Source: Octopus vulgaris (Eukaryota). From it: a stretch of 64,000 nucleotides of DNA. A program made the translations under genes and the position numbers. The DNA is taken from positions 2,666,001 through 2,730,000 of the forward strand of contig OX597820.1 of the NCBI GenBank assembly GCA_951406725.2. The letters run 5' to 3'. How positions within the stretch are numbered: position 1 is the stretch's first letter; every line of letters starts with the position of its first letter. Below the pieces are notes generated by a model. It was given only the letters and a program-made list of their open reading frames with translations. It ran no database searches and was not told the origin of the DNA. This document shows positions 1,924 to 64,000 of the stretch, piece after piece.

Positions 1924-2085
1924 TAGTTCTATATTTAAGAGATGAGGAATTATGTACACTATTTACATTTGGCGGATATTTGCCCTCATCTTCTTTGTTA
2001 TCACAATGTTTTGGCTGATATATCCTCCAGCCTTCATCAGGTGTTTGGGGAAATTTCGAATAATAATAATAATAATAATAATAAA
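1924..2085 (-). mobile_element. 5'-truncated single arm of the tRNA-head/hammerhead element (tail, hammerhead and AAT linker only)
   Basis: Reverse complement reads AAACAC CTGATGA A GGCTG GAGGATATAT CAGCC AAAA CATT GTG...CATAATTCCTCATCTCTTAAATATAGAACT, homologous to 18961-19138. Confidence 0.8.
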
Positions 2086-7482: not shown

Positions 7483-9455
7483 CTAGGAGAAATACCTAGG
7501 CTACCTTTCTCTTTGGCTAGGAGAAATACCTAGCCAAAGATAAGCCCCTGTACCTGGCTTTCGTTGACATGGAGAAAGCCTTTGATAGGGTCCCCCGATC
7601 CCTCATCTGGTGGTCAATGAGGAAACTAGGGATAGATGAATGGCTGGTGAGGGCTGTGCAAGCCATGTACAGAGATGCCGTAAGTAAGGTTAGGGTTGGC
7701 AACATGTACACAGAAGAATTCAAAGTAGAGGTTGGGGTCCACCAGGTTTCAGTACTCAGCCCCCTCCTATTTATCATAGTCCTCCAGGCAATTGTGGAGG
7801 AATTCAAGACAGGTTGCCCTTGGGAGCTCCTCTATGCTGACGACCTCGCTCTAATTGCTGAGTCACTATCAGAACTGGAGGAGAAGTTCCAGATGTGGAA
7901 GGAGGGTTTAGAATCGAGGGGCCTTAGAGTCAACCTAGCTAAAACCAAAGTACTAATAAGTAGGAAGGTAGACAATCCACAAATATCCTCAGGAAGATGG
8001 CCCTGCTCGATCTGTAGAAAAGGTGTAGGTAGAAACTCTATAAGATGTACCCAGTGTAAGCTATGGACACATAAGAGGTGCAGCAATGTCAAAGGTAGGC
8101 TAACTGGGAAGATAGTTTTTGTATGTGGCAGATGCTCGGGAGCATTGACCTCCGAAAATCTGCAGAAAACAACTTCCGTCACTTTCCAGGGGGAAAAACT
8201 AGAAGTAGTTGATAGCTTCCGTTATCTAGGTGACCAAGTCAGTAGTGGGGGTGGGTGCGCTGAAAGTGTAACTGCTAGAATAAGAATAGCCTGGGCAAAG
8301 TTTAGGGAGCTCTTACCTCTGCTGGTGACTAAAGGCCTCTCGCTCAGAGTAAAAGGCAGACTGTATGATGTATGTGTACACGAACAGCCATGCTACATGG
8401 CAGTGAAACATGGGCCGTGACTGCTGAGGACATGCGTAAGCTCGTGAGGAATGAAGCCAGTATGCTCCGATGGATGTGTAATGTCAGTGTACTTACTCGA
8501 CAGAGCGTTAGTACCTTGAGAGAAATGTTGTACCTAAGAAGCATCAGTTGTGGTGTGCAAGAGAGACGATTGCGCTGGTATGGTCATGTGGCGAGAATGG
8601 ATGAAGATAGGTGTGTGAGAAAGTGCCAATCCCTAGCAGTTGAGGGAACCCATGGAAGAGGTAGACCCAGGAAAACCTGGGACGAGGTGGTGAAGCACGA
8701 CCTTCGAACGTTAGGTCTCACCATGGAAATGACTAGAGACCGAGACCTATGGAAGTATGCTGTGCGTGAGAAGACCCGGCAAGACTAGTGAAGCCATAAC
8801 CCGTGGCCCCTACCTGGGACGTAGTCAGTCCACCTGTGCATACCTTCCTTCTTGTGACACTTGTGAAGACCTGTTGAGGCAAGTGAAAATCAAAATCAAA
8901 ATCAAAATCAAATCAAATCAAATCAAACCAAATCAAAATAGATGAACATCAATGGAATTTGTATCCTTGTGGTACCAGTGCCGGTGGCACATAAGAAAAC
9001 CATCCGAACGTGACCGTAGCCAGTACCGCATCGACTGGCCTCCGTGCTGAGGGCACGTAACAAACACCATCCGAGCGTGGCCGTTCGCCAGCCTCGTCTG
9101 GCACCTGTGTCGTGTGACACATCCGAGCGTGGCCGTCTGCCAGAACATAAAAACACCATCCGAGCGTGGCCGTCTGCCAGCCTCGTCTGGCACCTGTGTC
9201 GGTGGCACATAAAATCACCATTCGAGCGTGGCCGTCTGCCAGCCTCGTCTGGCACCTGTGTCGGTGGCACATAAAATCACCCACTACACTCTCGGAGTGG
9301 TTGGCGTTAGGAAGGGCATCCAGCTGTAGAAACACTGCCAGATCTGACTGGCCTGGTGCAGCCTTCGAGCTTGCCAGACCCCAGTTGAACCGTCCAACCC
9401 ATGCTAGCATGGAAAGCAGACGTTAAACAATGATGATGATGATGATGATGATGAT
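7479..9455 (+). mobile_element. 5'-truncated RTE-clade non-LTR retrotransposon (RT C-terminal half with PHD-like insert, tandem 3' UTR, (GAT)n tail)
   Basis: ORF 7569-8420 has RT motifs FVDMEKAFDRV, GVHQVSVLSPLLF, YADD (7833-7844) and FRYLG. A frameshift near 8378 continues into ORF 8372-8788 (RRLRWYGHVARM, GRGRPRKTW). Flanked on both sides by (TA)n. Confidence 0.95.
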
Positions 9456-16063: not shown

Positions 16064-16733
16064 TTTAAACAACGGAAGGCTACGCAACCTGACTTTTATT
16101 AACAGTAGGTTTTATATAGATTGTTCATCGTTGCCAGTACCAGCTGACTGGCTCCCGTGCTGGTAAAAAGCAGCATTCAAGCATGGTCATTGCCAGTGCC
16201 ACCTGACTGGCTCATGTGCTGGTGACACTATTTCCTATTTATATATATGAATGTGGCTGATGTCAGTATCCCGTAAAAAGCACTATCTGAACATGATTTA
16301 TGCCAAGCCTGCCAGCAGGTGACACGTAAAAAAGCACCCACTACACTCTCGGAGTGGTTGGCATTAGGAAGGGCATCCAGCTGTAGAAACATTGTCAGAT
16401 CAGATTGGAGCTTGGTACAGCCACTGGCTCTCCAGACCTCAGTCAAACTGTCCAACCCATGCCAACATGGAAATCGGACGTTAAACAATGACGATGATGA
16501 TGGTAATTAGAAACTAATGTAAAAAAAACATTGTGGAGGATATATTATAAATAATTAAGATTATTTATGAATAAAATTATCATAAAATACATAGAAGTAG
16601 GACGTTTATAATTATGAGTCATAAAATGGCTTTATAGCGGTTTTGGCTGCTACTTTTAACATTAAGGGTTTTGAAACTCTCTTAGTTATAATTGTGACTT
16701 GTTCATAATTATAAACCTTCTTCTATATATATA

Positions 16734-18145
16734 TAATTGCTGAGTCACTATCAGAACTGGAGGAGCAGTTTCAGGTGTGGAAGCAAGGATTAGAATCGAA
16801 GGGCCCTAGAATCAACCTAGCCAAAACCAAAGTCCTAATAAATAGGAAGGTAGACAAGTCACAAACGCCTTCAGGTAGATGGCCTTGCTCGATCTGTAGG
16901 AAAGGCGTAGGTAGAAACTCTATAAGATGCACCAAGTGTAAGCTATGGACACATAAGAGGTGCAGCAACATCAAAGGAAGGCTAACTAGGAAGATAGTTT
17001 TTGTATGTGGCAGATGCTCAGAAGCAATAAACACTGAAAATGTGCAGAGACCAACTTCCGCCACATTCCAAGGAGAAAAACTAAAAGTAGTTGATAGCTT
17101 CCGTTACCTAGGGGACCAAGTCAATAGCGGGGGCGGGTGTGCTGAAAGTGTAATTGCTAGAGTAAGAATAGCTTGGGCAAAGTTCAGAGAGCTCTTACCT
17201 CTGCTGGTGACAAAAGGCCTCTTGCTCAGAGTGAAGGCAGACTGTATGACGCATGCGTACGAACAGCCATGCTACATGGCAGTGAAACATGGGCTGTGAC
17301 TGCTGAGGATATGCGTAAACTCGCAAGAAATGAAGCCAGTATGCTCCAATGGATGTGTAATGTCAGTGTTCATACTCAACAGAGTGTAAGTACCTTGAAA
17401 GAAAAGTTGGACCTAAGAGGCATCAGTTGTAGTGTGCAAGAGAGATGATTGTGCTGGTATGGTCATGTGGCGAGAATGGATGAAGATAGTTGTGTGAAAA
17501 AGTGCCACACCGTAGTGGTTGAGGGAACCTGTGGAAGAGGTAAACCCAAGAAAACCTGGGACAAGGTGGTGAAGCACGACCTTCGAATGTTGGGCCTTAC
17601 AGAGGCAATGGCAAATGACCGAGACCTCTGGAGATATGCTGTGACGGTGAAGAACCCGACAAATAACGTGAACTCATGGCTGTTTCCTGCACCAGCTTCA
17701 CATAACCAGCTCCAGCCCATCCAAAGTACCTTGGATTGTAGGGTCACCTTCTGTGCTTGAGGAGACCTATTGAGTCAAGTACATCAACATCAAAATAAAA
17801 ATCAAATGGAAATTGTAGTTGTGATACCCGTGCCAGTGGAACGTAAAGAGCACCATCAGAATGTGGCCGATGCCAGCGCCACCTTGACTGGTTTCCGTGC
17901 TAGTGGCATGTAAAAAGCACCAACCAATCATGGCTGTTGCCAGCCTGCCGTAGCCCCTGTGCTGGTGCTACGTAAAAAGCACCCACTACACTCATGGAGT
18001 GGTTGGCATTAGGAAGGGCATCCAACTGTAGAAACACTGTCAGATCAGACTGGAGCCTGGTGCAGCCTCCTGGCTTCCCAGACGCCGGTCAAACCGTCCA
18101 ATCCATGCCAGCATGGAAAACAGACATTAAACGATGATGATGATA
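16734..18145 (+). mobile_element. Second 5'-truncated RTE-LINE copy
   Basis: ORFs 16775-17299, 17173-17448 and 17449-17760 are frameshifted or stop-interrupted pieces homologous to 7850-8788. PHD-like insert at 16886-17017; family A tail; (TA)n on both sides. Confidence 0.93.
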
Positions 18146-18518: not shown

Positions 18519-19138
18519 CATTATTTACATTTGACAGATATTTGTCCTCATCGTGTTTGTTGTTAACACATTTCAGCTGAAAACCCCTCCAGCCATCATC
18601 AGGTGTCTTGGGGAAATTTTATTATTATACAGGTCACTGCCTGGAATCAAACTCGGAATCTTGGGGTTAGTAGCCTGCGCTCTTAGCCACTACGCCATAC
18701 ACCCAGGGCGTAGTGGTTAAGAATGCGGGCTACAAACCCCAAGATTCTGAGTTCGATTCCAGGCAGTGACCTGAATAATAATGACCACAAACCTGAAGGC
18801 ATCGTCGAAAATAGAAATGCAAAGATCCTATGGCATTTTATGATTCAGTGCGACAATGAGATAGAGAATAGGAAGCCAGATATAGTCTTAGTTGAGAAAG
18901 AAAGCAAACTATGCTGGATGAAAGACATAGCATGCCCAGCTGACAATAATAAAAATATCGAAAAATACCTTAGGAATGAGAACCCAGGTTTGAAATTACC
19001 CCAAGACACCTGATGAAGGCTGAAGGGTATATCAGCCAAAATGTTGTGTTAACAACAAACAAGATGAGGACAAATATCCGTCAAATGTAAATAATATAAA
19101 TAATGTACATAATTCCTCATCTCTTAAATATAGAACTG
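18519..19138. mobile_element. Palindromic tRNA-head/hammerhead non-autonomous element (Penelope-like), copy 1
   Basis: Left arm 18519-18696 is the reverse complement of the right arm starting at 18706. A box GGCGTAGTGG 18707-18716, B box GAGTTCGATTCC 18749-18760, hammerhead-like motif 19005-19050. Only the right arm carries the tail ending TTAAATATAGAACTG. Confidence 0.8.
18783..18944 (+). pseudogene. R4/Dong-clade LINE restriction-like endonuclease fragment
   Basis: DHKPEGIVENRNAKILWHFMIQCDNEIENRKPDIVLVEKESKLCWMKDIACPAD matches the L-W-D-F-x-I-Q-x-D...R-(K/R)-P-D-I...D-(I/V)-A-x-P pattern of R4/Dong RLE domains. Flanked by AATAAT on both sides. Confidence 0.8.
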
Positions 19139-22200: not shown

Positions 22201-24564
22201 TTACATTCATGCTTTCAAATCCAGCTGCTGTACTCAAGACATTCAATATATAATATGTAGCTTAAATATATAACTGTGCAATATACAATTAAATTTGTAT
22301 TTTTTTACAAACTTTAGTAATACTTATGTATTCTCGTCTATGTCACCCTACATTGTGCATTGGTCAATTCAAGTGACCACCACCTACCCACCAAGTCCCA
22401 TCTCAGTACTTCCTCCCATGTTTACATGCACTGATTCAAGTAACCTGTGTTTTGTTACTAACTTTAATCATACAAAACTTCCTCCTACTTCACTCCTGCA
22501 TTCATTTTCATTTTCTCATCTTTCCACATCTAAAGTGATAAGACAACTATTTCTCATCATCCTCATCCAGAGTTTTAAATCTGGGTTTTGTCCCCATTAA
22601 CAGGGGTGGGCCGGATCTTCCTCAATGCCATAGCAACCGAGGTAGGCAGTTGCAGCTCACCCCAACCTTTGGGCTGGCGCTGGTGCCCTTTCTCCTTTGC
22701 TGTCATAAAGCATTTTCTGGAGCTGGATTTTCTATGGGGAGCATGCCCTTGCTTACCCTCAACCTCAGTTTCTAGACATGAGTGGTCCTGAGACCAAGGC
22801 CTTGATCATGATTTTTAAGAAATGTGGTGGAAAATTAGCTCAGGAAGGCAGGGACTCTACTCCCTATGACCCCTTTCAGAGCCCACACACACCTTCTAAC
22901 CAATATAAAGCATAATTACTTTTGCCCAGTTCTACTACTTTAATGGCATCAAGGAAAGTGGGGTGGGGTGCACCACAAAATAAATCACTTTAAGCCTGCT
23001 AAAATAGTATTCAAAGTGGTTTCTATGGTGGGAAATATATTTTTGAAGTGTTCATGGTGTCACAATGGGTATCTAATCGAGGACTTTGCAATTCCAAAAA
23101 GTAGCAGGAAACTTTTCCAATATAAATAAAGTGAAAGTAGACAAAAATAAACATTATTTTAGCCTCTTTCTGTTAGTTTTGTTTCGTTTTGAAATATAAA
23201 AATTTATTTTATTGCTTATTATTGTTTATATTTTAAATTACATGTATGTGTGTGTGAAGATCTGTTGAGTCAAGTGAAATCCTTGTCATGTCCAATGCCA
23301 GTACTGCCTGGCTGGTACCTGTGCTGGTGGCACATCAAAAGCACCATTCAAGCATGGTCGATGCCAGTCCCACCAGAATGGCTCTCATGCCAGTGGTGCG
23401 TAAAATGCACCATACGAATGTGGTCGATGCCAGTACCACCTGACTGGTCCCGTGCTGGTGGCACATAAAAAGTACCATTCAAGTGCGGTCAATGCCAGTA
23501 TTGCCTGACTGGCCCTCATGCCAGTGGTACATAAAAAAACACCCACAACACCCTCAGAATGGCTGGTGTTAGGAAGGGCATCCAGCTGTAGAAACCTTGC
23601 CAGATCAGATTAGAGCCTGGTGGAGCCTACTGGCTTGCCTGTCCTCAGTCAAACCGTCCAACCCATGCCAGCATGGAAAGTGGATGTTAAATGATGATGA
23701 TAATGATATGGGGGCACCAAAATCTTTTAAATGCTTAGGGCCTTAATGAGTCTTAACCCAGCTTTGACTAACATACAAGACATAGAACAGTACTTGAATT
23801 CAAGACGACTGGAAAGGGACTAATAAATATAAGACAGCAGAGTGAAAAGGGGCCATAAAGAGATTACCTTATTTGATGGATGGCATAAAAGATGCAAGGG
23901 CATTTTAGACACACCTAAATTTCAACAGCTCATATTCAGAAAAAACAGTTTTTTGTGCATTAAGGTATGTAATAGAAACCCAACTTTGCATATAGGACCT
24001 AGGATGATCGTTTTGAGATTTTCTTCTTTCATTTTTGGTTTATGTGCCACTGAATACAGCACATTTGATGCTTTCCAAAGATTTGAGGTGGGAGAGAATT
24101 GCAGTCATATTACAAAAAAAAATTGAGGCCGTAAGCAGGCAGGCTGGTTAGCACATTGGGCAAAATGCTTAGCAGTATTTCATCTCTCTCTCTCTACGTT
24201 CTGAGTTCAAATTCTGGCAAAGTCAGCTTTGTCTTCCATCTTTTCAGGGTCAATAAAGTAAGTACCAGTTGCATACTGGGGTCGATGTAATCAACTTACA
24301 CCCCTCCCTTGAAATTACTGGCCTTGTGCCAACATTTGAAACCAATATTACAAAACCATTGAAGTTGGCCAAGTCTACAATGGGAATCTGAGACAATTAT
24401 GATAAATTTGGTCAAGTGCATGAGCAGGGGCTCCATTATAAACCCAAACACTGAAGAGATGCTTAAAATGGAAAAGCTCTTGAGGGTGAGGATCAACAAG
24501 CAGACAGGATGTAATATACTTAGAAATACAGTTATGGCCAAAAGTTTGGAACATAGCTCTGAAG

Positions 24565-25201
24565 CATTATTTACATTTGATGGATATTTGTCCTCATCTT
24601 GTTTGTTGTTAACACAATGTTTCAGCTGATATACCCTCCAGCCTTCATCAGGTGTCTTGGGGAAATTTTGAAACTGGGTTCTCATTCCTAAGGTATTTTT
24701 CAATGTTGTTGCTATCATTATTATTATTATCATTGTTGTTATTATTGTTGTTGTTGTTGTTGCTGTTATTATTATTATTATCATTGTTGTTATTATTATT
24801 ATTATTATTCAGGTCACTGCCTGGAATCAAACTCTGAATGTTGGGGTTAGTAGCTCGCACTCTTAACCACTACACCATATGCCTGTGGGCTGCACTCTTA
24901 ATCACTATGCCATATGCCCGTGGACATATGGCATAGTGGTTAAGAGCACGGGCTACTAATCCCAAAATTCTGAGTTCAATTCCAGATAGTGACCTGAATA
25001 ATGATGATGATGATGATAACAGTGAAAAATACCTTAGGAATGAGAACCCAAGTTCGAAATTTCCCCAAGACACTTGATGAAGGCTGGAGAGTATATCAGC
25101 TGAAATGTTGTGTTAACAACAAATAAGATGAGGAGAAATATCGTCAAATGTAAATAATGAAAATAATCTACATAATTCCTCATCTCTTAAATATAGAACT
25201 G
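24565..25201. mobile_element. Palindromic tRNA-head/hammerhead element, copy 2 (most complete)
   Basis: Inverted arms about the centre GCCATATGCCCGTGGACATATGGC (~24909-24932). A box 24929-24939, B box 24972-24983. Imperfect TSD ATAGCTCTGAA (24553-24563) / ATAGGTCTGAA (25203-25213). Confidence 0.85.
24611..24656 (-). ncRNA. Minimal type I hammerhead ribozyme motif (best-preserved copy)
   Basis: Minus strand GACAC (stem I) CTGATGA A GGCTG-GAGGGTATAT-CAGCT (stem II) GAAA CA TT GTGTT (stem I'). The consensus of six arms restores CAGCC GAAACGTT. Catalytic activity is not shown. Confidence 0.65.
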
Positions 25202-25344
25202 TATAGGTCTGAAAATTACATTTTTTCATATTAAATGCCCAAACTTATATTTAATATGTAAAATATTATTACTTGGCCAAAAGTTTGGAACATAGGTCTG
25301 AAAATTAGATTTTATATATTAGATACCCAAATATATACATAGTA

Positions 25345-26096
25345 TATATCATATATACTCATGTAATTGTCGAATTTTTTGGACCCTTTTTTATAAAGAT
25401 CAAATTTATAGGGTCAACATGGATATTACTTTTCAGGAAGTGGAATCCAAGCTAGAATCCAAAGTGCTGTATGAGCAGCAGCAGAAGCCCAGCTGATCTC
25501 TAAGCGAATAAAAACAAATGAATTACAGAAATATTACCAATTCTAGGCATCAAAACACATGCCCTAGTAAAATATAATGGCCTAGTGATTAACTGAATGC
25601 TTTTAGGTTTACCAAAGTCAGGTCTTTGCATGAATTCAGACAATGGCGTTTGCCAGGGTTCACCAAAAGTGCTGTTTGTGAAACAAGTTTCTCACCATCT
25701 AAACAACGAATGTATGATGCATGTGTTTATTGTGCTGCAAGATGTGTGCAGACTTGCAGCATATCCTGTGCATACATTTTAGTAATGGTGATGTAGCACC
25801 CATCAACACATGTGTAGTGCTCACTATTAAATGGTGTCTTACTATAAGCACTGAGCATTCCACCTCTAGAGGCAGGCTACAGTAAGGTGGCCACACAATT
25901 TTGTGACAGTGTTATTTCTACATAAAGGATGATACGGAACCTTGACCCACAAGTGTTGTCCTGTTGTTCATGAAATACTAGGATCAACTTTTATACAGGG
26001 TCTATGGAAAATTCCTAATTTTTTGGCCAAAAATAGTGGCAGGGGGGGGGGGTCGATTTTTACATGAGATCAACAGTTACTTGAGTATACACAGTA
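25345..26096. mobile_element. Degenerate pogo/Tigger-like element inside the Tc1-like MITE
   Basis: Left end CATATATACTCATGTAATTGTCGA and right end GTCGATTTTTACATGAGATCAACAGTTACTTGAGTATACACAGTA resemble the CCGTATATACTCGAGT..GTCGAC type of pogo TIR. Confidence 0.5.
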
Positions 26097-59362: not shown

Positions 59363-60165
59363 CAGTGGTTCCCAAAGTGGGGGCAGTGGAAAGTTCCAAG
59401 GGGATGTTGAAGTGGGGCGATAAAGGGGGTAGTTATTCAAGTAAAAAGAACAAAATAATGTACATTATTTACATTTGATGGATATTTGTCCTCATCTTGT
59501 TTGTTGTTAACACAACATTTCGGTTTATGTATCCTCCAGCCTTCATATAAGTGTCTTGGGGGAAATTTCAAACCTGGGTTCTCATTCCTAAGGTATTTTT
59601 CAATGTTATTATTATTATTATTATTCAGGTCACTACCTGGAATCCAACTCGGAATCTTGGGGTTAGTAGCCCACGCTCTTAACCACTATGCCATATGCCC
59701 GTCAAATGTAAATAACTTATCATCATCATCATCATCGTTTAACGTCCGTCCTCCATGCTAGCATGGGTTGGACGGTTCGACCGGGGTCTGGGAAGCCAGA
59801 AGGCTGCACCAGGCTCCAGTCTTATCTGGCAATGTTTCTACAGCTGGTTGCCCTTCCTAACGCCAACCACTCCAAGAGTGTAGTGGGTACTTTTTACGTT
59901 CCACCGGCACGGAAGCCAGTCGAGGCGACGCTGGCATCGGCCACGATTTGGATAGCGCTTTTTATGTACCACCAGTCCAGGGGTCCTGGCAACTGCCGGG
60001 TGCCAGTCATAGGATTGGTTCAATTTCGATTCTGATTTCGATTTCTCATCTCTTAAATATAGAATTGAACAAAATAATGGTTTCCTTAGGTTAGAAAGAG
60101 GTCTATGTTTGTGATGGTTACTTGGGATGGGGGCGCTAGTGATGTGGCCTGTTTAGGAACCACTG
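59363..60165. mobile_element. hAT (Charlie/MER5-like) MITE
   Basis: TIRs CAGTGGTTCCCAAA / TTTAGGAACCACTG. Perfect 8-bp TSD CTTTAAAA at 59355-59362 and 60166-60173. Confidence 0.85.
59461..60066. mobile_element. Palindromic tRNA-head/hammerhead element, copy 3 (right arm deleted; family A tail inserted at 59717-60045)
   Basis: Perfect 13-bp TSD GAACAAAATAATG at 59448-59460 and 60067-60079. Left arm intact; centre ...ATGCCCGT fused to CAAATGTAAATAA; ends TCATCTCTTAAATATAGAATTG. Confidence 0.85.
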
Positions 60166-61279
60166 CTTTAAAAGGTGAACTTTGTAGCAAACAATTAGGG
60201 GTGGTCTCAGATGGGTTGGTGACAAAAAAGTTAACATAAATTGTCTTTCTAATACATCTGCTCCCGCATCACTCGCAATGCATTGGATAACATACACAGC
60301 AGAACAGTAAGGTTGATATCAGACCCTACTCGCCAAATAGAAGAATGAACCAACAAGAAGAATCTACTAGAAATAGCAGCTAAATTCAAACCACAACTTA
60401 CAAAAAAAAAATGCATTGGACACTGTGTTATACTAATAAATACACCAAAAGATAGGATGGTCACGACTAGCATTGTTGACCAGAGGCCTTGTGATAGAGG
60501 GCTAAACTAGAACAAACATAAGAGCAGATGGCTAGGCTTGGAAACAGATAAGGGTTGGTGACACAAACGGTATCTGGGCAATTCCAGCTGATCCATGCAA
60601 GCATGGAAAAGTAGGCATTAAACCGTGATGATGATGATGATGATGACAACCCTATCACAACCATCCACTAACAATTCAGTGGATGGCTATCTTATTCAAT
60701 AAGGATATCTAGTTTAGGAGTAGACCAGCAAAGGGGGTTTAATATCTTAACTTTTTGTTACCTATTTTTACAGTGAACCAGACGGGGTTAGTAGTGCAAA
60801 TTGGTGCCACTTTAAATAGCTGCTGCCAGTGGGTGGCTGAAGAGATAAGACAAATTCTGGAGTTCATAGAACGTATCTGTGAATTGAACAAACTGGGTTG
60901 TTTTTGGTTTTTGTTTTTCTGGGATGCTATCTGACAGGAAATTGGTACTTCAGAGGACTGGGAGCGGAAGTGGCTAAGAAGCTGAAAGCCAAATTATCTT
61001 CAACACATGTGGGCAGATGTGAATGACTCCCATCTATCAGTTATCTTATACTGGTTTCAGTCACTGAACCGTGACCATGCTGGGGCACTGCCTCCAAGAG
61101 TTTCAGTTAAACAAATTGTCTCCAGTACTTTCTTTTTTTAAAAAAAATCTGATACTAATTCCATTGGACTCTTTTGCCAAACTGCTAAGTTATGGCCATG
61201 TCAACAAATCCACACAAGTTCTCAAGTGATGTTGGGAGGGGGAAAATACCTCACAAAGACACGCATACATGTGCATTAT

Positions 61280-63226
61280 ATGTGTGTGTGTATGTATACA
61301 CACACATATATATATATACACACACACACAAATATATATATGCACAAATGCTCTAATATCTATACATCATTGGTTTTTTTATCATCTCATTACACAAAAA
61401 TACATATATACATATATACATACACACACACATATATACATATATATACACACACATATACCCATATATACACATATATATATACACCCATATATACACA
61501 TATATATATATACACATATATACACATATATATATACACATATATACACATATATATATACACATATATACACATATATATACACACATATATACACATA
61601 TATATACACACACATATATATATACACATACATATACACACACATATATATATACACATACATATACACACACATATATATATACACATATATATATACA
61701 CATACATATATACACATACATATATACACATACATATATACACATACATATATACACATACATATATACACATACATATATACACATATATACACACATA
61801 TATATACACACATATATACACACATATATATACACACATATATACACACATATATACACACATATATACACACATATATATACACACATATATACACATA
61901 TATATATATACACACATATATACACATATATATATATACACACATATATACACATATATATATATACACACATATACACATATATATATATACACACATA
62001 TACACATATATATATATACACACATATACACATATATATATATACACACATATATACACACATATATATATACACACATATATACACACATATATATATA
62101 TACACACATATACACACATATATACACACACATATATACACACACATATATACACATATATATATATACACACATATATACACATATATATATATACACA
62201 CATATATACACATATATATATACACACATATATACACATATATATATATATACACACATATATACACATATATATATATATATACACACATATATATACA
62301 CACATATATACACATATATATATATATACACACATATATACACATATATATATATATATACACACATATATACACATATATATACACATATATATATATA
62401 TACACACATATATACACATATATATACACACATATATATATACACACATATATATATATATATATACATATATATATACACATATATACATATACATATA
62501 TATATACACGTATATATATACACGTCTGCCAGCCTCGTCTGGCACCTGTGTCGGTGGCACATAAAATCACCCACTACACTCTCGGAGTGGTTGGCGTTAG
62601 GAAGGGCATCCAGCTGTAGAAACACTGCCACATCTGACTGGCCTGGTGCAGCCTTCGGGCTTCCCAGACCCCAGTTGAACCGTCCAACCCATGCTAGCAT
62701 GGAAAGCGGACGTTAAACGATGATGATGATGATGATGATGATACATATACACACACACATATATACACATATATATATACACACACACACACATATATAC
62801 ACATATATATATATACACACACACACATATATACACATATATATACATACACACATATACATATACATACACACACACATATATATACATATACATACAC
62901 ACACACATATATACATATACATACACACACACATATATATACATACACACACACACACACACATACATATACATACACACACACATATATACATATACAT
63001 ACACACACACACATATATACATATACATACACACACACACATATATACATATACATACACACACACATATATACATATACATACACACACACATATATAC
63101 ATATACATACACACACACATATATACATATACATACACACACACATATATACATATACATACACACACACATATATACATACACATACATACACACATAT
63201 ATATATACATACATATATATATATAT

Positions 63227-63275
<49 letters not shown>

Positions 63276-64000
63276 TATATATACACACACACACACATAT
63301 ATATACACACACACATATATATACACACACACATATGTACATATATATATATATACACACATATATATACATATATATACACATACATATACATACATAT
63401 ACATACATATACATATATATACACACATATACATACATATACATACATATACATATATATACACACATATATACATATATATACACACATATATACATAT
63501 ATATACACACATATATACATATATATACACACATATATACATATATATACACATATATACACACATATATACACATATATACACACATATATACATATAT
63601 ATACACACATATATACATACATATACACACATATACATACACACACACATATACATAAATATACACACACATATACATAAATATACACACACATATACAT
63701 ATATATACACACACACATACATATATATACACACACACATATACATATATATACACACACACATATACATATATATACACACACACATATATATACACAC
63801 ACACCTATACATATATATACACACACACCTATACATATATATACACACACACCTATACATATATATACACACACACCTATACATATATATACACACACAC
63901 ACCTATACATATATATACACACACACACCTATACATATATATACACACACACACACCTATACATATATATATACACACACACCTATACATATATATATAC
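61280..64000. repeat. Giant compound (TA)n/(CA)n satellite, >2.7 kb
   Basis: Almost pure alternating purine-pyrimidine with nearly no G on the plus strand. Source of the 300-500 aa low-complexity ORFs. Confidence 0.97.
62522..62741 (+). mobile_element. Young RTE 3' end inserted in the satellite
   Basis: Nearly identical (about five substitutions by eye) to 9233-9455, with a (GAT)n tail. Confidence 0.92.

What the first reader, a model, noticed from the sequence alone, without database searches (positions are those of the whole stretch)
24565..25201. Candidate undescribed retroelement: back-to-back tRNA-promoter arms each carrying a hammerhead ribozyme (putative Penelope-dependent SINE)
Seen: four copies in 64 kb. 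Each complete arm has a tRNA-like head (TGGC(G/A)TAGTGG A box, CTACTAA loop, GAGTTC(G/A)ATTCC B box), an (AAT)n linker and the consensus GACAC-CTGATGA-A-GGCTG-loop-CAGCC-GAAA-CG-TT-GTGTT. The arms are joined head-to-head at a conserved centre (GCCATATGCCCGTGG.CATATGGC). Only one arm has a ~35-45 nt extra tail, two copies have 11-13 bp TSDs, and the right arms have no T4 run between head and tail. Established: Penelope-like elements carry minimal type I hammerheads with a palindromic stem III (here AACGTT) that are thought to act as dimers, often have inverted terminal repeats with a one-sided tail, and make TSDs. An extra A between A9 and G10.1 is tolerated in the CChMVd hammerhead. Inference: a Pol III-transcribed, self-cleaving non-coding element using Penelope RT/GIY-YIG machinery rather than a LINE. 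I do not recall such a SINE type being described but cannot check the literature.
Basis: partly seen in the sequence, partly recalled or inferred. Interest (0 to 1): 0.85.

Follow-up and report, generated by a model that had tools for sequence, protein, structure and literature searches.

The report
Penelope retrotransposon with tRNA-type promoter

Summary
The structure is real, but it is not a stand-alone SINE. The arm (tRNA-like head, AAT linker, minimal hammerhead, optional ~30-nt tail) is the pseudo-LTR of a decayed Penelope/Poseidon element encoding RT and GIY-YIG in the same genome. It follows that ORF's stop codon in 9 of 20 long copies, and its hammerhead and tail are also the ORF's first codons.

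About 42,000 insertions are estimated (15 in 1.0 Mb). Two-armed ones show the Penelope signature: one tailed and one tailless end in 54 of 60, and target duplications of 11 bp or more (mostly 12-13) in 41 of 54. Back-to-back heads arise at insertion, when cDNA stops and folds back at a short palindrome 13 nt before the A box (224 exact fold-backs against 271 read-throughs genome-wide).

What looks new is an intact A/B-box head inside a coding element's pseudo-LTR. Most full-length copies viewed start at that same site, and the ~2.6-kb unit has no TTTT terminator (shuffle p 0.006-0.06; one tRNA-less relative also has a TTTT-free ORF). Pol III transcription and hammerhead cleavage are untested, and no window arm keeps an intact hammerhead.

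The parts
24553..24563 (.). Left target-site duplication (11 bp, one mismatch)
   Evidence: an unbroken copy of the target sequence lies at 25280-25310
24565..24883 (-). Left arm: tailless pseudo-LTR copy (head, AAT linker, hammerhead, end in the 9-nt repeats); reads as the N-terminus of the PLE ORF
24611..24656 (-). Left minimal hammerhead (core intact, stem III palindrome broken by CpG decay)
24823..24834 (-). Left B box
24867..24877 (-). Left A box
24884..24931 (.). Junction: partial extra fold-back (24884-24909) and palindromic centre (24910-24931); inferred RNA 5' end of the right arm near 24916
   Evidence: the 5' end is inferred
24916..25201 (+). Right arm: tailed pseudo-LTR copy, no TTTT
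24929..24939 (+). Right A box
24972..24983 (+). Right B box
25040..25201 (+). First codons of the PLE ORF (putative start codon at 25040), overlapping hammerhead and tail
   Evidence: start codon inferred
25069..25114 (+). Right minimal hammerhead (C3U and broken stem III palindrome in this copy)
25171..25201 (+). Penelope-type tail, present on one end only
25203..25213 (.). Right target-site duplication
1925..2060 (-). Second insertion: 5'-truncated tailed arm without head
18519..19138 (.). Third insertion: two heads back to back, tail on the right, LINE fragment in the right linker, no TSD found
59455..60067 (.). Fourth insertion: one tailless arm (-) joined by microhomology to a short tailed end (+) that another repeat interrupts (about 59716-60040); 13-bp TSD

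Best explanation

Steps. (1) Shown: the element reads pLTR - ORF (RT, then GIY-YIG) - pLTR; the head begins 29 nt after the stop codon; hammerhead and tail are also the first codons of the ORF. (2) Inferred: transcription starts at about +1, 13 nt before the A box, and can run through the whole ~2.6-kb unit because it has no TTTT. (3) Inferred from the Anolis Poseidon element: the endonuclease cuts both target strands 12-13 nt apart and each end primes reverse transcription at one of two internal sites, giving one tailed and one tailless end (the end pattern and TSD are shown). (4) Inferred: priming in the upstream pLTR copies only ~300 nt before RT runs off the RNA's 5' end; the self-complementary cDNA end folds back or pairs with the second cDNA, giving the conserved centre. 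Priming in the downstream pLTR of a long RNA gives copies that reach into the ORF. (5) The hammerhead is predicted to cut only as a dimer, if at all, and may not be needed for insertion.
For: Identity as a pLTR: the head follows the ORF end in 9 of 20 long loci. Upstream copies continue past the tail into the ORF. RT matches RVT_1 (E 1.8e-8). Closest proteins are PLE polyproteins, with an Anolis carolinensis protein at 39%, and a quick tree sets the element with these and apart from this genome's Neptune-type PLEs. A protein at 54% identity keeps the hammerhead-encoded N-terminus (P0010).

Insertion signature; mechanism in PMC11167929 (parts 1-2 of 4 read).

Discrete 5' end: 38 of 42 intact heads in loci picked by their 3' part stop between about -1 and +12 (my count). 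Genome-wide exact matches are 224 fold-back centres and 271 read-throughs, but only 2 fold-backs that include the upstream bases, with a looser pattern. Five of 7 upstream pLTRs viewed start at +5 to +10. The cDNA hairpin is weak (about -2.6 kcal/mol).

Pol III: A and B boxes are kept at tRNA spacing while the acceptor stem does not pair (sequence). There are 0 TTTT runs in the 2,323-nt column-majority of the ORF region against 2.4-4.1 expected (p 0.008 mononucleotide, 0.064 dinucleotide, 0.021 synonymous-codon, 0.006 with the Phe bias removed). All 6 TTT codons have non-T neighbours. The 24 runs seen in 49.9 kb of copies are in one or two copies each. Neptune ORFs of like T content have 8-9 runs, and 64 relatives have 391 against 252 expected.

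Coding sources: two clear non-CpG inherited variants sit at the free core position N7 (177 T / 30 A of 211; Asp/Glu in frame) and in loop II (165 G / 42 A of 215; synonymous).
Against: No transcript evidence: only assembled contigs were on offer. The TTTT test is modest. GGGG runs are also absent (0 against 2.6). Six of 64 relatives have none in the stretch examined, among them L408 with 2,340 TTTT-free nt, no tRNA head and a TATA/CCAAT-type pLTR. A TATA-like TTTATAA lies at -30 to -24 in the ORF end, so Pol II could start at the same place in tandem copies. In the unbiased sample 5 of 11 heads read through into the ORF, and 2 of 7 upstream pLTRs do. Trimming of a mismatched cDNA end could also explain the lack of longer fold-backs. 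How an uncapped Pol III RNA would be translated is unexplained. Kojima 2024 argues that autonomous partners must use Pol II because Pol III is poorly processive (PMC10886601, Discussion read). All long copies examined are broken, so activity is past or unsampled.
Confidence: 0.55

Rival explanations
1. Same element, but the tRNA head is a passenger (an old SINE insertion in the 3' UTR). Pol II makes the RNA, from the TATA-like motif in the ORF end or by read-through, and copies pile up at the palindrome only because cDNA folds back there.
For: TATA-like motif at -30 to -24 and a bulged hairpin around +1. About half of heads read through into the ORF. D. virilis Penelope has an internal promoter like those of LINEs (PMC2377424, abstract). 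One tRNA-less relative has a TTTT-free ORF.
Against: Fold-backs almost never include the upstream bases (2 against 224). Five of 7 upstream pLTRs start at +5 to +10 and so lack the TATA. TTTT is absent over the whole unit. No TSD is visible around the head and linker (sequence).
Confidence: 0.25
2. Split labour: Pol III makes only short RNAs from pseudo-LTRs or from internally deleted masters, which the PLE protein copies in trans like a SINE, while Pol II makes the long coding RNA. This is the nearest form of the first reader's idea.
For: Short arms look slightly younger (3.8% against 5.5% from the column majority at non-CpG sites, selected samples). Internally deleted tandem forms exist (L204, L213, L202, L207, L215, L228, L229). 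SINE-length Pol III transcripts are the norm (PMC10886601).
Against: No base sets short arms apart as their own lineage. The inherited hammerhead-region variants are silent or conservative in the ORF frame. Solo tailed arms lack the sequence beyond the tail, which the Anolis protein needs on its template (PMC11167929). It does not explain the TTTT-free ORF or long copies that start at +5 to +10.
Confidence: 0.17
3. The source was a palindromic non-coding dimer (two fixed arms back to back, as a MITE or a self-cleaving dimeric SINE).
For: Inverted arms with a conserved centre; paired arms share rare alleles about twice as often as random pairs (17 of 6,315 columns against 0.0012 expected).
Against: The centre has both orientations relative to the tail. 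The second arm is often truncated at varied points. Only 2 of 15 random insertions have two heads. The coding element has no left arm of the palindrome. Ends are asymmetric with 12-13-bp TSDs.
Confidence: 0.03

Closest known systems
Penelope/Poseidon-clade PLEs, e.g. Poseidon of Anolis carolinensis (Frangieh et al. 2024, PMC11167929; Craig et al. 2021, PMC8557442)
   Same: RT plus C-terminal GIY-YIG ORF, pLTRs in partial tandem, inverted 5'-truncated second copy, 30-40-nt one-sided tail, hammerhead overlapping the ORF start.
   Different: Here the pLTR holds a tRNA-derived A/B-box head, copy ends pile up just before it, and the unit lacks TTTT. No B box was found within up to 700 nt after the coding match in 64 metagenomic relatives, many of them cut short.
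Minimal hammerheads of metazoan PLEs (Cervera and de la Pena 2014, PMC4209133, passages)
   Same: [quoted passage not shown]
   Different: Nothing structural; the motif is ordinary for the class.
TRIMp3 elements Cassandra, Helenus, Ajax (Kojima 2024, PMC10886601, abstract and Discussion)
   Same: A small-RNA-derived, probably Pol III, promoter inside the terminal repeat of a retroelement.
   Different: Those are non-coding LTR elements of 0.3-1.3 kb whose autonomous partners are said to need Pol II; here the head sits in a coding PLE.
Schistosoma Sm-alpha / Sj-alpha (PMC2770079, passages; the original papers not read)
   Same: tRNA-derived head together with a hammerhead in a high-copy repeat.
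   Different: Described as SINE-like and non-coding, with canonical hammerheads; no link to a coding PLE in the passages read.
Animal non-LTR retrozymes (PMC7229834, passages; bioRxiv 10.64898/2026.07.22.740005, part 1 of 5)
   Same: Hammerhead-bearing units related to PLE pLTRs; this family has ~290-nt tandem derivatives of that kind.
   Different: Retrozymes are head-to-tail non-coding tandems; the finding is an inverted insertion of a coding element's pLTR.

Membership tests
EN+ PLE, Penelope/Poseidon clade | Single ORF with RT and C-terminal GIY-YIG endonuclease | tested here: met
   RVT_1 hit. The C-terminal domain matches the endonuclease of the Anolis protein by eye and homologs are so named, but Pfam gave no GIY-YIG hit on it. 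All copies are broken.
EN+ PLE, Penelope/Poseidon clade | pLTRs in partial tandem and inverted 5'-truncated copies | tested here: met
EN+ PLE, Penelope/Poseidon clade | 30-40-nt tail on one end | tested here: met
   54 of 60 two-armed insertions; sharp tail end
EN+ PLE, Penelope/Poseidon clade | No extra Zn-finger in the RT-EN linker; groups apart from Neptune | tested here: met
   (quick tree; no D. virilis Penelope, Nematis or Naiad rows)
PLE minimal type I hammerhead | Conserved core, paired stem II, extra base after A9, palindromic stem III | tested here: met
   column counts; same layout with other stem II sequences in relatives; Rfam models do not match
PLE minimal type I hammerhead | Self-cleavage as a dimer | not testable with these tools
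   needs an in vitro assay
SINE (tRNA-derived) | tRNA-derived head with A and B boxes at the 5' end | tested here: met
   best match tRNA-Arg(TCG) among 25 distinct genes of six isotypes, so the parent tRNA is not settled
SINE (tRNA-derived) | Non-autonomous, non-coding lineage distinct from its partner, sharing only a 3' end | tested here: not met
   the whole arm is part of the coding element; no diagnostic bases
SINE (tRNA-derived) | Transcribed by Pol III | tested here: inconclusive
   indirect only; no raw RNA reads
Non-LTR retrozyme | Head-to-tail non-coding tandem of hammerhead units | tested here: not met
   the finding is inverted; only minor derivatives are tandem
MITE / DNA transposon | Fixed symmetric terminal inverted repeats | tested here: not met
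   asymmetric ends, variable truncation, RT partner

The most novel reading that the evidence does not exclude
An autonomous, protein-coding retrotransposon whose entire ~2.6-3-kb RNA is made by RNA polymerase III from a captured tRNA promoter, with its ORF purged of TTTT terminators. Its SINE-like short copies are by-products of internal priming near the 5' end of that same RNA, which shows one route from a coding retroelement to a SINE.
Probability: 0.4. Interest if true: 0.85.

Novelty: new variant of a known kind. Interest (0 to 1): 0.6.

Why it matters
Coding retrotransposons are generally taken to need Pol II (R2 uses Pol I; recalled), and Pol III is thought to be limited to short non-coding elements. 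A PLE that put a tRNA promoter in its pseudo-LTR and lost all TTTT runs would break that rule and raise the question of how an uncapped RNA is translated. Even if Pol III makes only short RNAs, the family gives tens of thousands of dated insertions that record both PLE priming sites, the cut stagger and how the two cDNAs join, steps not yet validated for PLEs (PMC11167929). It also warns annotators: these copies look like tRNA SINEs or MITEs but are PLE ends.

Tried and rejected
Rfam and ARAGORN gave no tRNA or hammerhead hit; the miRNA hits reflect microsatellites and the palindrome.

A Pfam GIY-YIG search of the genome returned Neptune-type PLEs (and one apparent host gene) that do not share the arm. 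The partner was found instead from sequence shared beyond the tail in L021 and L050.

A-runs joined to the +1 site in L262 and L276 first looked like template jumps from an RNA 5' end. They can also arise by a deletion between two GCCC repeats, so I dropped them.

Pure snap-back copying of one arm from the other is not supported, since the loop variant is not concordant between arms. The loop A allele is somewhat commoner in tailed arms (25 of 89 against 12 of 87, p 0.026, uncorrected), which is unexplained.

Sequencing runs: no RNA holder listed. Contigs of four runs with four organism codes cover the whole element but cannot show starts or ends.

No relative in viral contigs. tRNA-like hits in L371 and L373 are flanking repeats outside the PLE. 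I could not get DNA for the closest proteins (55-65% identity), so the spread of the head is unknown.

The random sample is 100 stretches of 10 kb from contigs C1-C22; a further 20 could not be fetched. One low-complexity hit (L304) was dropped before counting 15 insertions.

Literature: nine searches showed no PLE with a tRNA head. Repbase and Dfam were not searchable, most subscription papers are absent (for example Ohshima and Okada 1994 on octopus SINEs, seen only as a reference), and the repeat library behind PMC13282606 was not in the one supplement held. The family may therefore already exist there as a consensus. bioRxiv supplements were closed.

Full report
Setting. The window lies in a 2.8-Gb animal genome with about 30 large contigs. 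From size and repeat make-up I take it to be an octopus; that is recalled knowledge and inference, not a tool result.

Observation. Four related insertions are in the window. The focal one has two oppositely oriented arms, a tail on the right only and an 11-bp TSD. Only two of the four have two heads, and none of the six arms keeps an intact hammerhead. In 999,900 bases from 100 arbitrary 10-kb stretches there are 15 insertions, about 42,000 genome-wide (Poisson range about 23,000-69,000). Of the 15, 2 have two heads, 5 have a head that continues into coding sequence, 4 have one head that stops at or after its start, and 4 have no head.

Insertion signature. Among 60 two-armed insertions (best hits of three searches, plus random stretches and the window), 54 have one end at the tail and one in the 9-nt repeats 25-44 nt upstream. 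One has two tails, one none, four are unclear. The tail end is sharp. TSDs of 11 nt or more occur in 41 of 54, mostly 12-13 nt, against 0.13 in shuffled pairs. Craig et al. describe this inverted, one-tailed layout for PLEs (PMC8557442, passages). Frangieh et al. show for the Anolis element that both strands are cut and RT starts at two internal sites that bound the tail, and that hammerhead cleavage is not needed in vitro (PMC11167929, parts 1-2).

The partner. Two loci continued past the tail with shared sequence. Following it gave an ORF start and then near-full-length decayed elements with RT and a C-terminal endonuclease. In 9 of 20 long loci the ORF's stop codon is followed after 29 nt by the tRNA head, then linker, hammerhead and tail. 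The frame runs from an ATG before the hammerhead through the tail into the ORF (L263); the focal left arm itself translates as this N-terminus. A protein at 54% identity has the same hammerhead-encoded peptide. Homologs are PLE polyproteins, and a quick tree puts the family with them and away from this genome's Neptune-type elements. The arm is therefore the element's pseudo-LTR. Across 230 arms, short and ORF-attached classes show the same commonest base in the columns printed by class, apart from CpG-decay columns, and share the N7 variant; the ORF-attached classes are small (15 and 31).

Hammerhead. The family motif has the PLE minimal form: extra base after A9, G10.1-C11.1, palindromic stem III (PMC4209133, passages). 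Relatives show the same layout with different paired stem II sequences. Within the family the one non-CpG core position with an inherited variant is the free N7 (30 A of 211, where T-to-A changes elsewhere are about 1%); a second variant is in loop II. In the ORF frame one is Asp/Glu and the other synonymous. This fits selection in coding source elements but does not prove cleavage.

The centre. The coding element has only a 10-nt near-palindrome at this spot, with no left arm. The back-to-back form is made at insertion: both centre orientations occur relative to the tail, second arms are cut at many points, and some carry only 15-25 nt of head before jumping to the tailed end. Paired arms disagree at the loop variant in 16 of 55 cases, as often as random pairs, though they share rare alleles about twice as often as random pairs. 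Genome-wide, an exact 22-nt fold-back centre occurs 224 times, the exact read-through junction 271 times, and a fold-back that includes the upstream bases twice. So roughly half of the cDNAs that reach this site end within a few bases, 13 nt before the A box. The hairpin is weak, which favours run-off from an RNA end over pausing, but trimming of a mismatched end is not excluded. Five of 7 upstream pLTRs viewed also start at +5 to +10, so long RNAs seem to begin there too.

Pol III. The head aligns best with tRNA-Arg(TCG) among 25 sampled tRNA genes (z 8.4) and keeps consensus A and B boxes without a pairing acceptor stem. The column majority of 30 copies has no TTTT in 2,323 nt, against 2.4-4.1 expected under four nulls (p 0.006-0.064), and the focal arms have none. 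Runs seen in copies are private mutations. Controls: Neptune ORFs have 8-9; 64 relatives together have 1.55 times expectation, but 6 have none, one of them over 2,340 nt with a Pol II-type pLTR. GGGG is also absent here. A TATA-like motif sits at -30. No RNA run could test starts. I put a functional Pol III start at about 0.7 and Pol III synthesis of the full coding RNA at about 0.4.

Comparison. It works like, and by the features tested is, a Penelope/Poseidon PLE. It fails SINE membership on independence from its partner. tRNA plus hammerhead is known from Sm-alpha, and tRNA promoters in terminal repeats from non-coding TRIMp3 elements, whose author expects autonomous partners to use Pol II. 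Nine literature searches found no coding PLE with such a head; repeat databases could not be checked. Two unchecked notes of this scan report tRNA-bearing, PLE-mobilised non-coding tandems in other genomes; they are leads only.

Verdict. Observation partly confirmed; first reading partly supported; a new variant of a known kind. Interest 0.6, or 0.85 if Pol III makes the coding RNA.

Noticed in passing
window 18789-18945; L010 and L015 linkers: Fragments of another LINE (protein motifs recalled as restriction-like-endonuclease, Dong/R4 type) sit inside the AAT linker of several arms, suggesting it targets AAT repeats.
   Followed up: partly
window 24525-24563 and 25203-25348: The focal insertion interrupts one of two direct repeats of another element whose start recalls a Tc1-type terminal repeat (family name recalled).
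   Followed up: no
L181-L184, L199: A young Neptune-type PLE family with intact 781-aa frames in many places, a second upstream frame of 250-380 aa, tandem CCAAT/TGACGTC motifs after the ORF and no canonical hammerhead found.
   Followed up: partly
L204/L208, L213, L202, L207, L206: Retrozyme-like head-to-tail units of about 290 nt (hammerhead, tail and first 119 nt beyond it) with nearly the same deletion junction on several contigs.
   Followed up: partly
window 59716-60040; L204, L202: The same unrelated repeat, starting with a (CAT)n run, is inserted in or next to the tail region of three copies.
   Followed up: no
window 7521-8420 and 16715-17299: Reverse-transcriptase fragments of another LINE family (RTE-like by recall).
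   Followed up: no
window 61237-63930: About 2.7 kb of AT/AC microsatellite.
   Followed up: no
L408: A complete Poseidon-type element in a metagenome contig with a TTTT-free ORF but a TATA/CCAAT-type pLTR; used as a counter-example.
   Followed up: yes
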